Source: a virus
Taxonomy: Duplodnaviria; Heunggongvirae; Uroviricota; Caudoviricetes
Reading direction: 5' to 3' (one strand)
Length of the DNA stretch: 48,682 nt
IMG/VR virus record: IMGVR_UViG_2511231131_000006
Coordinates: 1-48,682 of that record
Under the pieces are notes generated by a model that worked only from the letters and a program-made list of their open reading frames with translations, made no database searches and was not told where the DNA came from. Position numbers and translations under genes: made by a program. The number at the start of each line of letters is the position of its first letter. Position 1 is the first letter of the stretch. Shown here piece after piece: positions 11,648 through 12,359 of the stretch.

Positions 11648-11982
11648 CATCCTCGTCCTTCAGGACGTGGATTCTTTTTCCGGATGCCGCGCCAGCGGCA
11701 TGTAGGGGCAGCTCACAAAACGGAAAAAATTGTACGCTAAGCCTCGCCAGGTGAACTGAATTCATTCCGATATGGGAATTCCCATATCGGGCGAAAACGG
11801 TTTGCTGTAACGGCAGAGTTAAGTAGGATTGCTGCGGGTGCTTGAGGCTATCTGCCTCGGGCATGAACACCAACGGCAGATAGATAAAAGCCCCACCCGA
11901 CTATAAATCGAAGTGAGGCCCCTATATGCTCGTCACATATAGATTGCCTCTTACGGACCGAAAGGTCAAGGAGAAGCAGGCT

Positions 11983-12138
11983 ATGAAGCAGCAAAAGGCG
12001 ATGTTAATCGCCCTGATCGTCATCTGTTTAACCGTCATAGTGACGGCACTGGTAACGAGGAAAGACCTCTGCGAGGTACGAATCCGAACCGGCCAGACGG
12101 AGGTCGCTGTCTTCACAGCTTACGAACCTGAGGAGTAA
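11983..12138 (+). CDS. hok: Hok/Gef-family type I toxin
   Basis: 51-aa product MKQQKAMLIALIVICLTVIVTALVTRKDLCEVRIRTGQTEVAVFTAYEPEE, closely resembling Hok. An in-frame ATG lies 57 nt upstream, and a rho-independent terminator lies downstream. Confidence 0.75.
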   Translation: MKQQKAMLIALIVICLTVIVTALVTRKDLCEVRIRTGQTEVAVFTAYEPEE

Positions 12139-12206
12139 GAGACCAGGCGGGGGAGAAATCCCTCGCCACCTCTGATGTGTCAGGCATCCTCAACGCACCC
12201 GCACTT

Positions 12207-12238
12207 AACCCGCTTCGGCGGGTTTTTGTTTTTATTTT
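12207..12238 (+). terminator. Rho-independent terminator after hok
   Basis: Hairpin AACCCGC-TTCG-GCGGGTT followed by a T-rich tract. Confidence 0.6.
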
Positions 12239-12359
12239 CAACGCGTTTGAAGTTCCGGACGGCGCCGGAATAGAATCAAAAATACTTAAGTAGCGCGCAG
12301 GGAGAAGAGGGATGGACCCCGAACAGGGGGAGTGCTATTTATCTGGAAGGATTCTGTTG

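What the first reader, a model, noticed from the sequence alone, without database searches (positions are those of the whole stretch)
11650..12240. hok-type type I toxin locus with an unusually long structured leader and a perfect 24-bp palindrome
The 51-aa ORF is a clear Hok-family toxin with terminator. The upstream 330 nt is longer than a typical hok 5' region and contains several hairpins (ATGCCGC-GCCA-GCGGCAT at about 11680-11700) and a perfect 24-bp palindrome CCGATATGGGAATTCCCATATCGG (11767-11790). The antisense Sok-like RNA and mok frame are not obvious from sequence. The palindrome could be a protein-binding site or a remnant of another element.
Basis: partly seen in the sequence, partly recalled or inferred. 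Interest (0 to 1): 0.4.

Follow-up and report, generated by a model that had tools for sequence, protein, structure and literature searches.

The report
Ordinary prophage hok/sok toxin locus
This is a standard, already annotated hok/sok toxin-antitoxin cassette (hokD/hokW type) in an E. coli O157 prophage; its supposed long leader is unrelated neighbouring DNA (the tail of the paa gene, a transposon-end scar and a phage-backbone palindrome) and not part of the toxin transcript.

Summary
The sequence features are real. There is a 51-aa Hok ORF (11983-12138) with a terminator, a hairpin at 11684-11701 and a perfect 24-bp palindrome at 11767-11790. The "unusually long leader" is not real. The Rfam hok/sok leader model matches full length at 11836-11985. 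The 5' end at 11836 pairs with a 3' element at 12188-12200. Homology to other hok loci starts at about 11793. The leader is therefore 147 nt, which is normal. mok (11926-12138, in frame with hok as in mokW of phage 933W) and an antisense Sok RNA (about 11934 to 11884, minus strand) can both be identified.

The protein is identical to K-12 HokD (RelF) and 92% identical to the experimentally tested HokW. The window is a PPompW-type lambdoid prophage.

The stretch 11648-11835 is a patchwork:
- the paa terminator and a second paa-linked hairpin
- a solo Tn3-family terminal inverted repeat (11705-11741)
- the tail of a small phage ORF
- the palindrome
- the hok promoter

The palindrome belongs to the phage backbone, occurs in about 15% of sampled hok loci and is not needed by hok. 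One unexpected point: its 20-22-nt core is the coding sequence of the D-M-G-I-P-I-S motif of phage KilA-N genes, where its synonymous sites do not vary. Its function is unknown.

Verdict: already known, low interest.

The parts
10889..11647 (+). paa (AcfC-family adhesin Paa), the gene upstream of the finding; a low-GC cargo gene (moron) in the prophage
   Evidence: Pfam SBP_bac_11 with E=5.5e-34. RefSeq and GenBank annotate it as paa. GC content is 31-41% at 10600-11200.
11654..11679 (+). paa intrinsic-terminator-like hairpin (CGTCCTTCAGGACG) followed by a T-rich tail
   Evidence: Found by the terminator scan. Conserved downstream of plasmid-borne paa-like genes.
11684..11701 (+). Second hairpin, ATGCCGC-GCCA-GCGGCAT, part of the paa 3' flank
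   Evidence: Sequence and fold. Conserved with a variable loop next to plasmid paa-like genes, whose homology ends at about 11704-11707.
11705..11751 (+). Solo Tn3-family terminal inverted repeat (37 nt, 11705-11741, GGGG...ACGCTAAG) plus about 10 nt of the adjoining tnpA 3' end; a transposon scar whose outer end faces paa
   Evidence: 11703-11751 matches the ends of 'Tn3 family transposase' genes at 89-92% identity in 253 plasmid records of many genera. It is a single copy in the window.
11744..11759 (+). Remnant of the 3' end of a small hydrophobic phage ORF (34 aa in intact relatives), with its stop TGA at 11757-11759. The junction with the transposon scar lies in a short shared stretch, TCGCC-GG
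   Evidence: Alignment with uninterrupted prophages L005 and L006.
11767..11790 (.). Perfect 24-bp palindrome CCGATATGGGAATTCCCATATCGG. It is phage-backbone DNA lying 46-69 bp upstream of the inferred hok transcription start, outside the hok mRNA
   Evidence: unique in the window, not chance. (present in 12 of 80 hok loci, 64-65 nt before the hok 5' end). (the same 20-22 nt occurs in KilA-N genes with invariant codons).
11801..11829 (+). Inferred hok promoter: -35 TTTGCT/TTGCTG and -10 TAGGAT (TAGAAT in most relatives)
   Evidence: The block conserved across hok loci begins about 43 nt before the 5' end and contains the -10 hexamer. The simple consensus scan did not flag it, so the assignment is an inference.
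11836..12234 (+). Full-length hok mRNA, about 400 nt. The 5' tac element (translational activator, 11836-11847) pairs with the 3' fbi element (fold-back inhibition, 12188-12200)
   Evidence: Rfam RF01794 matches 11836-11985 at 103.9 bits. The minimum-energy fold closes the 5' end onto 12188-12200, with z=-7.7. The upstream 186 nt fold as a separate domain.
11926..12138 (+). mok-like ORF of 70 codons, in frame with hok, with Shine-Dalgarno GAGG at 11915-11918
   Evidence: ORF list. Same arrangement as the annotated mokW/hokW of phage 933W.
11983..12138 (+). hok toxin ORF, 51 aa, identical to K-12 HokD/RelF
   Evidence: Pfam PF01848 with E=1.2e-23. RefSeq protein WP_000813254.1 is annotated both at the 100%-identical locus and in a K-12-type laboratory strain (BM28). 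47/51 residues identical to HokW.
11884..11934 (-). Sok-like antisense RNA, about 50 nt, complementary to the mok Shine-Dalgarno sequence and start codon. Terminator hairpin followed by UUUU at 11889-11886
   Evidence: Projection of the annotated sokW (L001 1593-1663) through alignment A1. Hairpin fold of -22.8 kcal/mol, z=-3.8. It covers part of the Rfam sok model.
11941..11969 (-). Inferred sok promoter: -35 TTGACC, 17-nt spacer, -10 CAATCT. The -10 is weak; this allele has a 1-nt deletion relative to the TAACCT/TAATCT of relatives
   Evidence: Sequence and comparison of alleles. Not flagged by the consensus scan.
12207..12234 (+). hok intrinsic terminator (AACCCGC-TTCG-GCGGGTT followed by a T-run)
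   Evidence: Terminator scan.

Best explanation
The locus is a complete, canonical hok-mok-sok type I toxin-antitoxin cassette of the prophage hokD/hokW type. It sits in the nin region (between replication gene P and antiterminator Q) of a PPompW-type lambdoid prophage of E. coli O157.

**How it most likely works (inferred by homology with R1 hok/sok and hokW-sokW).** A weak promoter at 11801-11829 makes a hok mRNA of about 400 nt starting at 11836. Pairing between its 5' end and 12188-12200 keeps the mRNA closed and untranslatable. After 3' trimming the mRNA would refold, and translation of mok (11926) would then allow translation of hok (11983). The short antisense Sok RNA (about 11934 to 11884) pairs with the mok ribosome-binding region and blocks this. 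When the unstable Sok is lost, the 51-aa membrane peptide is made.

**The leader and the upstream DNA.** The leader is 147 nt, which is normal. The 186 nt upstream (11648-11835) are not leader. They are a mosaic of the paa terminator with a second paa-linked hairpin, a solo Tn3-family inverted repeat left by the event that brought paa in, the tail of a small phage ORF, a 24-bp palindrome belonging to the phage backbone, and the hok promoter.

**The palindrome.** It is an independent element that hok does not need. Its core is the same nucleotide sequence as a codon-invariant palindrome inside phage KilA-N genes. I think it most likely is a copy of a cis-acting dyad, either a protein recognition site or a hairpin, with no role in hok control. 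This last point is the weakest part of the explanation.
For: **Shown by tool results**
- Pfam HOK_GEF, E=1.2e-23.
- Rfam RF01794 matches full length at 11836-11985 with 103.9 bits against a gathering score of 59.
- The minimum-energy fold of 11836-12232 closes the first 12 nt onto 12188-12200, with z=-7.7 and 0 of 100 shuffles folding as well. With the 186 upstream nt added, the hok domain folds the same way and the upstream part folds separately.
- The locus is 100% identical to PPompW phages and to 558 E. coli records, where it is annotated hokD next to paa.
- Homology to hokW and to other hok loci begins at 11793-11817.
- K-12 hokD shares only 11969 onward and lies behind relBE.
- mokW, hokW and sokW are annotated in phage 933W and project onto the window.
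- HokW toxicity and sokW antitoxin activity were shown experimentally (PMC8621323).
- Hok is 92% identical to HokW.

**Upstream patchwork**.

**The palindrome is dispensable for hok.** Only 12 of 80 loci that encode the identical Hok carry its core.

**The KilA-N link.** Codons inside the palindrome do not vary in 33 unique KilA-N coding sequences: GAT 33/33, CCC 33/33, ATA 32/32. Other conserved residues of the same domain vary freely at synonymous sites.
Against: - No transcript data were available, so the hok and sok start sites and promoters are inferred.
- Both inferred promoters fall below the simple consensus scan.
- In this allele the sok -10 hexamer is poor (CAATCT) and the hok -10 hexamer is TAGGAT rather than TAGAAT. 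The balance between toxin and antitoxin, or the activity of the locus as a whole, could therefore differ from hokW.
- The refolding step after 3' trimming was not reproduced clearly. In the fold of the truncated RNA the 5' end pairs locally.
- For the palindrome, nothing here separates a working site from a neutral relic. The hok-linked copies are too similar to each other to show selection.
Confidence: 0.88

Rival explanations
1. One reading: the hok transcript has an extended leader of about 330 nt (11650-11982), and its hairpins and palindrome regulate the toxin.
For: The region folds well, and the hairpins are stable (-18 to -29 kcal/mol, z about -4). Read-through from paa or from the phage early operon could physically join these sequences to hok RNA.
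Against: - The Rfam leader model starts at 11836.
- Homology among hok loci starts at 11793-11817, and upstream flanks differ completely between loci that encode the same Hok.
- 11654-11679 is a terminator belonging to paa.
- 11705-11741 is a transposon end.
- The upstream part folds as a separate domain.
Confidence: 0.03
2. The palindrome is a neutral relic. Either it is a fragment of about 35-48 nt of a KilA-N gene (minus strand, reading ...D-M-G-I-P-I-S-E-stop) left at a module junction by illegitimate recombination, or it is a local inverted duplication. In both cases it has no present function.
For: - The 20-23 nt are identical to the enterobacterial-phage KilA-N motif, and there is flank similarity (window GGAATGAATTCAGT against KilA-N GGAGTTAATTCAAT).
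- The palindrome lies 3 nt from the left boundary of the hok module.
- Copies are drifting. One has a 1-nt deletion (L005 type), one an outer mismatch (L006 type), and one is diverged (L013).
- It is absent from about 85% of hok loci and is a single copy in the window.
Against: - There is no longer KilA-N remnant on either side.
- L013 keeps one compensated pair (A-T to G-C), and L107 has a 26-bp perfect version.
- The same dyad is clearly under nucleotide-level constraint where it sits in KilA-N genes, so it is a sequence that something recognises.
Confidence: 0.4
3. The palindrome is a hairpin that terminates or processes rightward phage early transcripts (or paa read-through) just before the hok promoter, so that hok is insulated from them.
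For: It sits directly after the stop codon of the upstream small ORF in intact prophages, 11 nt before the hok -35 hexamer. The RNA hairpin is -18 kcal/mol on either strand.
Against: - No T/U-run follows on either strand, and the terminator scan does not list it.
- Most hok loci lack it.
- The same dyad sits in the middle of KilA-N coding sequences, where termination would be harmful.
Confidence: 0.1

Closest known systems
hokW-sokW (with mokW) of Stx2 phages 933W / Sakai prophage Sp5
   Same: - 51-aa toxin, 47/51 residues identical.
- mok is in frame with hok.
- The same 5' end GGGTGCTTGAGG, the same promoter block and the same 3' region are present. Overall DNA identity is 86% from 11794 to 12210.
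- Toxin and antitoxin activities were shown experimentally for hokW-sokW (PMC8621323).
   Different: - The window allele lacks 21 nt in the loop of the Sok terminator hairpin, so its leader through the ATG is 150 nt against 171-173 nt in the relatives.
- It has a 1-nt deletion in the sok -10 hexamer, a better -35 hexamer (TTGACC) and a G in the hok -10 hexamer.
- Four C-terminal residues differ.
- The genomic position differs: the nin region here, the far end of the genome in 933W.
hokD (relF) of the Qin cryptic prophage of E. coli K-12
   Same: The protein is identical (WP_000813254.1). The downstream context is the same: rem-like ORF, small ORF, DUF968/YdfU, then RusA and Q in the window.
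   Different: K-12 hokD shares only 11969 onward (14 nt before the ATG). It sits behind relBE and has no tac, mok or sok region. The window carries the complete regulatory cassette.
hok/sok (parB) of plasmid R1
   Same: The architecture is the same: Hok/Gef peptide, overlapping mok, antisense Sok over the mok ribosome-binding region, 5'-3' fold-back pairing and an intrinsic terminator. The Rfam family built around these leaders matches full length.
   Different: HokW, the close relative, is only 44% identical to R1 Hok (PMC8621323). mok is in frame with hok here. The cassette is carried by a prophage rather than a plasmid.

Membership tests
hok/sok (Hok/Gef) type I toxin-antitoxin loci | Small hydrophobic Hok/Gef peptide of about 50 aa | tested here: met
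   Pfam PF01848 with E=1.2e-23 and 82.9 bits against a cut-off of 22. Identical to HokD.
hok/sok (Hok/Gef) type I toxin-antitoxin loci | Conserved structured 5' leader of normal length | tested here: met
   Rfam RF01794 model positions 1-157 match 11836-11985 at 103.9 bits against a gathering score of 59. The leader is 147 nt.
hok/sok (Hok/Gef) type I toxin-antitoxin loci | mok reading frame that starts upstream of hok and overlaps it, with its own Shine-Dalgarno sequence | tested here: met
   ORF at 11926-12138 with GAGG 7 nt upstream. Same as the annotated mokW. Translational coupling itself was not tested.
hok/sok (Hok/Gef) type I toxin-antitoxin loci | Antisense Sok RNA with its own promoter and terminator, complementary to the mok translation-initiation region | tested here: inconclusive
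   The annotated sokW projects to 11934-11886 on the minus strand. The terminator hairpin plus UUUU folds at -22.8 kcal/mol. The -35 hexamer is TTGACC, but the -10 hexamer CAATCT is weak and below the scan threshold. No transcript evidence was available.
hok/sok (Hok/Gef) type I toxin-antitoxin loci | Long-range pairing between the 5' end (tac) and the 3' end (fbi) of the full-length mRNA | tested here: met
   GGGUGCUUGAGG (11836-11847) pairs with CCUCAACGCACCC (12188-12200) in the minimum-energy and centroid folds, z=-7.7.
hok/sok (Hok/Gef) type I toxin-antitoxin loci | Toxicity of Hok and its neutralisation by Sok | not testable with these tools
   Shown for the 92%-identical HokW and for sokW (PMC8621323). 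Not shown for this allele.
Tn3-family transposon terminal inverted repeat (for 11705-11741) | A repeat of about 38 bp that begins GGGG and ends ACGCTAAG (from my knowledge of Tn21- and Tn1721-type ends), abuts the 3' end of tnpA, and recurs at transposon ends in many plasmids | tested here: met
   The 37-nt sequence GGGGCAGCTCACAAAACGGAAAAAATTGTACGCTAAG is present. Identity is 89-92% to sites at or under 'Tn3 family transposase' genes in 253 plasmid records, often 2-3 sites per record. There is no partner repeat in the window, so it is a solo scar.
Intrinsic (Rho-independent) terminator (for the palindrome) | G+C-rich hairpin followed by a T/U-run | tested here: not met
   The hairpin is present, but no T-run follows on either strand. 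The scan does not list it.
Phage operator set (for the palindrome) | Several related dyad sites in the same phage genome | tested here: not met
   There is one site only in 48.7 kb with up to 3 mismatches in the 20-mer. Half-site matches occur at the chance level, 5 against 4.0 expected.
KilA-N gene (for the palindrome region) | Open reading frame that encodes a KilA-N domain (PF04383) | tested here: not met
   Only about 11-16 codons (D-M-G-I-P-I-S-E-stop-I-Q) resemble the domain on the minus strand. No longer remnant is found. The 86-aa minus-strand ORF at 11613-11873 reads the palindrome in another frame.

The most novel reading that the evidence does not exclude
The 24-bp palindrome is a copy of a so far undescribed cis-acting dyad, CGATATGGG(A/G)AT(T/C)CCCATATCG. 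The dyad is kept at the nucleotide level inside phage KilA-N genes, where it doubles as the codons for D-M-G-I-P-I-S. It has also been placed, as non-coding DNA, just upstream of hok promoters in some lambdoid prophages. It would be the recognition site of a phage or host factor, possibly the KilA-N protein itself, or a functional hairpin. That would link KilA-N proteins or their regulator to the DNA next to hok.
Probability: 0.25. Interest if true: 0.5.

Novelty: already known. Interest (0 to 1): 0.15.

Why it matters
As a toxin-antitoxin locus it adds little, because hokD/hokW-type cassettes in O157 prophages are annotated and one has been characterised.

Three points are useful:
1. It corrects the "long leader" idea.
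2. It shows that this prophage carries the complete regulatory version of the gene known in K-12 only as the truncated hokD/relF.
3. It dates the paa adhesin cargo gene as an insertion marked by a Tn3-family end scar next to the hok cassette.

The only lead with wider potential is the side observation that a palindrome overlapping the most conserved KilA-N motif is invariant at synonymous sites. This suggests a dual coding and cis-acting element in a very widespread phage and giant-virus gene family.

Tried and rejected
1. **Long leader.** Rejected on the Rfam start, the homology breakpoints and the folding domains.
2. **Palindrome as terminator.** No T-run follows it.
3. **Palindrome as one of several operators.** There is no second copy or enriched half-site in the window.
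4. **Partner inverted repeat for the Tn3-type end.** None in the window.
5. **Widespread mobile palindromic element.** I first suspected this from the many non-hok hits of the 16-mer in viral contigs, including giant-virus MAGs. It was rejected because the hits that lie in long open reading frames are KilA-N coding sequences reading xMGIPIx.
6. **Longer KilA-N pseudogene around the palindrome.** tblastn finds only the motif plus a few codons.
7. **Palindrome as a recombination breakpoint inside KilA-N genes.** There is no left/right identity discordance apart from an indel artefact.
8. **Known RNA families in 11600-12300.** Below threshold there is only sok, a weak isrK-like hit (24.9 bits against 50) in the hok 3' UTR, and nothing over 11672-11835.
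9. **Literature search for the palindrome sequence.** Only irrelevant hits.
10. **Literature search for PPompW/paa.** Nothing useful came up.
11. **Selection on the hok-linked palindrome copies.** The variants are too few and too similar for a test.
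Full report
**1. What is in the sequence**

The window region 11300-12600 holds four relevant features:
- the 51-aa ORF MKQQKAMLIALIVICLTVIVTALVTRKDLCEVRIRTGQTEVAVFTAYEPEE at 11983-12138
- a terminator-like hairpin at 12207-12224 followed by a T-run
- the hairpin ATGCCGC-GCCA-GCGGCAT at 11684-11701
- the perfect 24-bp palindrome CCGATATGGGAATTCCCATATCGG at 11767-11790

The palindrome is unique in the window. Its 20-nt core with up to 3 mismatches is found once, against 0.03 expected.

**2. Identity of the window and the locus**

The stretch 11640-12300 is 100% identical to the 'PPompW' lambdoid prophages of E. 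coli O157:H7 (LC5678xx records). There the ORF is annotated gef, 'phage maintenance protein', next to paa. It is also at least 99% identical to 558 complete E. coli records, where RefSeq calls the genes paa (AcfC-family adhesin) and hokD.

Gene order in the 100%-identical locus:
- Upstream: replication protein P, a DUF1627 pseudogene, a fimbrial pseudogene, then paa.
- Downstream of hokD: two small ORFs, a DUF968 protein, RusA, antiterminator Q, and tRNAs.

This is the nin region of a lambdoid prophage.

The Hok peptide matches Pfam HOK_GEF with E=1.2e-23. It carries the same RefSeq protein accession as HokD (RelF) of a K-12-type laboratory strain, BM28. It is 47/51 identical to HokW of phage 933W.

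**3. The leader is of normal length**

Four lines of evidence put the hok mRNA 5' end at 11836.
- The Rfam family RF01794 models the hok leader in the sense orientation, from the 5' end to the hok AUG. It matches full length (model 1-157) at 11836-11985 with 103.9 bits against a gathering score of 59.
- Homology with hokW of 933W begins at 11793/11794. Homology with hundreds of other hok loci begins at 11794-11817.
- Among 80 IMG/VR loci that encode the identical Hok, the DNA further upstream falls into many unrelated classes. The shared block starts about 43 nt before GGGTGCTTGAGG and contains a TAGAAT -10 hexamer, which is TAGGAT in the window.
- The first 12 nt, GGGUGCUUGAGG, are complementary to CCUCAACGCACCC at 12188-12200. 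The minimum-energy and centroid folds of 11836-12232 close the molecule through exactly this pairing (-166.3 kcal/mol, z=-7.7). This is the tac-fbi fold-back that defines full-length hok mRNAs (established knowledge from the R1 system).

When 11650-11835 is added, the hok domain folds identically and the extra 186 nt form a separate domain. The leader from 11836 to the hok AUG is 147 nt. In relatives the same stretch counted through the ATG is 171-173 nt, against 150 nt here. If anything, this allele has a short leader.

**4. mok and Sok can be identified**

A 70-codon ORF starts at ATG 11926, with GAGG 7 nt upstream, and runs in frame into hok. Phage 933W is annotated in the same way, with mokW and hokW sharing a stop codon. 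Some other alleles have mok out of frame (and my count), so both arrangements exist in the family.

The annotated sokW (71 nt, minus strand) projects through the alignment to about 11934-11886. This stretch covers the mok Shine-Dalgarno sequence and start codon. On the minus strand it folds into a 5' tail or small hairpin plus a strong terminal hairpin followed by UUUU (-22.8 kcal/mol, z=-3.8).

Relative to hokW, the window allele lacks 21 nt in the loop of that hairpin. The same 150-nt allele occurs in other loci of the 80-locus sample.

The inferred sok promoter on the minus strand is TTGACC, a 17-nt spacer, then CAATCT. The -10 hexamer is weak, because this allele has lost one T relative to the TAACCT/TAATCT of relatives. 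Neither this promoter nor the hok promoter passes the simple consensus scan.

For hokW-sokW, three things were shown experimentally: toxicity of the peptide, neutralisation by sokW expressed from its own promoter, and a role in release of Sp5 phage after mitomycin C (PMC8621323). For the window allele these steps are inferred.

**5. What the 'upstream 330 nt' really are**

From left to right:
- **(a) paa terminator, 11654-11679.** A terminator-like hairpin with a T-rich tail directly after the paa stop codon.
- **(b) Second hairpin, 11684-11701.** Both hairpins are conserved downstream of plasmid-borne paa-like genes, whose homology to the window ends at about 11704-11707. They belong to the paa cassette.
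- **(c) Tn3-family repeat, 11705-11741.** The sequence GGGGCAGCTCACAAAACGGAAAAAATTGTACGCTAAG, plus about 10 further nt, matches the ends of Tn3-family transposase genes at 89-92% identity in 253 plasmid records from many genera, often at 2-3 sites per record. It has the GGGG...ACGCTAAG form of Tn21/Tn1721-type terminal repeats (my knowledge). There is no partner in the window. It is a solo transposon-end scar with its outer end facing paa.
- **(d) Return to phage backbone, from about 11744.** The sequence becomes phage backbone again. In uninterrupted prophages (L005, L006) a 34-aa hydrophobic ORF ends at the TGA that corresponds to 11757-11759, and the palindrome follows it. The switch from transposon to backbone lies in a short shared stretch, TCGCC-GG.
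- **(e) Palindrome, 11767-11790.**
- **(f) hok promoter, 11801-29.**

No Rfam family matches 11672-11835 even at E of 1 or less.

**6. The palindrome**

It lies 46-69 bp upstream of the inferred hok start and 3 nt to the left of the point where hokW homology begins.

Among the 80 identical-Hok loci, 12 carry the exact 16-nt core. In 11 of them the core is 64-65 nt before the 5' end of the retrieved hok. One more locus (L013) has a diverged copy placed 22 nt further away. It is, however, absent from most hok loci, so hok/sok does not need it.

The copies vary at the edges:
- 26 bp perfect in L107
- 24 bp perfect in the window
- 22 bp in the L006 type
- a 1-nt deletion in the L005 type
- one compensated pair and one broken pair in L013

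It has no T-run and no second copy in the window.

**7. An unexpected relative of the palindrome**

A scan of viral contigs for the 16-nt core gave more than 120 hits, about half of them not linked to hok and some from giant-virus MAGs. In those with long open frames, the core is read as x-M-G-I-P-I-x within KilA-N domain proteins, with Pfam PF04383 at E from 4e-27 to 3e-19.

I then retrieved KilA-N genes with codon-degenerate patterns. In 33 unique coding sequences of 60-100% protein identity, the codons inside the palindrome are invariant:
- D = GAT in 33/33
- P = CCC in 33/33
- the second I = ATA in 32/32
- the first I = ATT in 31/33
- G = GGA or GGG only
- S/T = TCG or ACG
- the preceding codon ends in C in all but one of the motif variants listed, even though its amino acid varies

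Other conserved residues of the same domain use synonymous codons freely, for example D23 with GAT 14 and GAC 19, and P84 with CCT 11, CCA 21 and CCC 1. All variation falls in the central four bases (AATT, GATT or AATC), apart from a T-for-S replacement.

The dyad CGATATGGGRATYCCCATATCG therefore appears to be constrained as nucleic acid within KilA-N genes.

The hok-linked copies share only about 35-48 nt with these genes. On the minus strand the window reads P-D-M-G-I-P-I-S-E-stop-I-Q, against KilA-N R-D-M-G-I-P-I-S-E-L-I-Q. There is no longer remnant. I found no sign that the dyad is a recombination breakpoint within KilA-N genes, and no literature on the sequence.

Three possibilities for the hok-linked copy cannot be separated with these data: a working site, a relic of a KilA-N gene, or a local inverted duplication that converged on this sequence. 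A 20-nt identity is too long for chance, so the copies share either descent or a common constraint.

**8. Comparison with known systems, and verdict**

The locus meets every sequence-level criterion of the hok/sok family that could be tested. The Sok promoter remains inconclusive and toxicity was not testable.

- It is the complete version of the gene that K-12 retains as the truncated hokD/relF behind relBE. K-12 homology starts only at 11969.
- It is a close allele of the characterised hokW-sokW.
- It is already annotated in RefSeq and GenBank.

The finding is ordinary, with interest about 0.15. The KilA-N palindrome observation is recorded as a separate lead.

Noticed in passing
window 11767-11790; loci L210-L289 and L291-L370 (motif about 170 nt into each KilA-N gene); L154 4587; L096, L147 (giant-virus MAGs): The palindrome core is the coding sequence of the invariant D-M-G-I-P-I-S motif of phage and giant-virus KilA-N genes. 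In 33 unique genes the codons inside the dyad do not vary (GAT, ATG, GGA/GGG, ATT, CCC, ATA, TCG/ACG, and the preceding codon ends in C). Other conserved residues vary freely at synonymous sites. This suggests a cis-acting dyad or hairpin embedded in the coding sequence. I found no description of it.
   Followed up: partly
window 11705-11751: A solo Tn3-family (Tn21/Tn1721-like) terminal inverted repeat plus about 10 nt of a tnpA 3' end lies between paa and the phage backbone. It marks how the paa adhesin cargo gene was joined to this prophage. The plasmid paa-like genes lack this repeat at that position.
   Followed up: partly
window about 10200-11700: paa sits in a low-GC island (31-41% GC at 10600-11200, against about 50-57% in the flanks). 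It is preceded by a frameshifted fimbrial pseudogene in the RefSeq annotation of the identical locus. Plasmid homologues (86-89% identity) lie near ST enterotoxin genes and IS1 elements.
   Followed up: partly
window 11824-11829 and 11941-11946: This hok allele has TAGGAT instead of the TAGAAT found in nearly all other hok promoters sampled. It also has a 1-nt deletion that turns the sok -10 hexamer TAATCT/TAACCT into CAATCT. Both promoters may be weaker than in hokW.
   Followed up: no
window 11915-11945 and the corresponding part of L008-L087: The stem-loop around the mok start codon, which is also the 5' part of Sok, is hypervariable between hok alleles. The arms change together, for example CTATATGCTCGTCACATATAG, TCATGCTAGACACATGTAGG and CTATGAACGGCAAATCTAGG. 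This fits allele-specific Sok recognition among the several hok loci of one O157 genome.
   Followed up: no
window 42323-42445 (-), 16283-16455 (+), 15270-15342 and 15436-15509 (+): Rfam hits above the gathering score: isrC Hfq-binding sRNA (150 bits), STnc100 sRNA (101 bits) and two tRNAs downstream of Q (annotated tRNA-Ile and tRNA-Arg in RefSeq).
   Followed up: no
window 12147-12228 (+): The hok 3' UTR, including the fbi element and the terminator, gives a sub-threshold full-length match to the Salmonella prophage sRNA family isrK (24.9 bits against a gathering score of 50, E=0.003).
   Followed up: no
L005 2912-3016, L006 2903-3007; remnant at window 11744-11759: A 34-aa hydrophobic ORF (MSDDISLVMEGALAVIAVVGVYCLVVFLMDRLGN) lies immediately upstream of hok in many lambdoid prophages. 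Several unrelated upstream modules also end in a hydrophobic C-terminal segment just before the hok promoter. In the window the paa/Tn3 insertion has truncated it.
   Followed up: no
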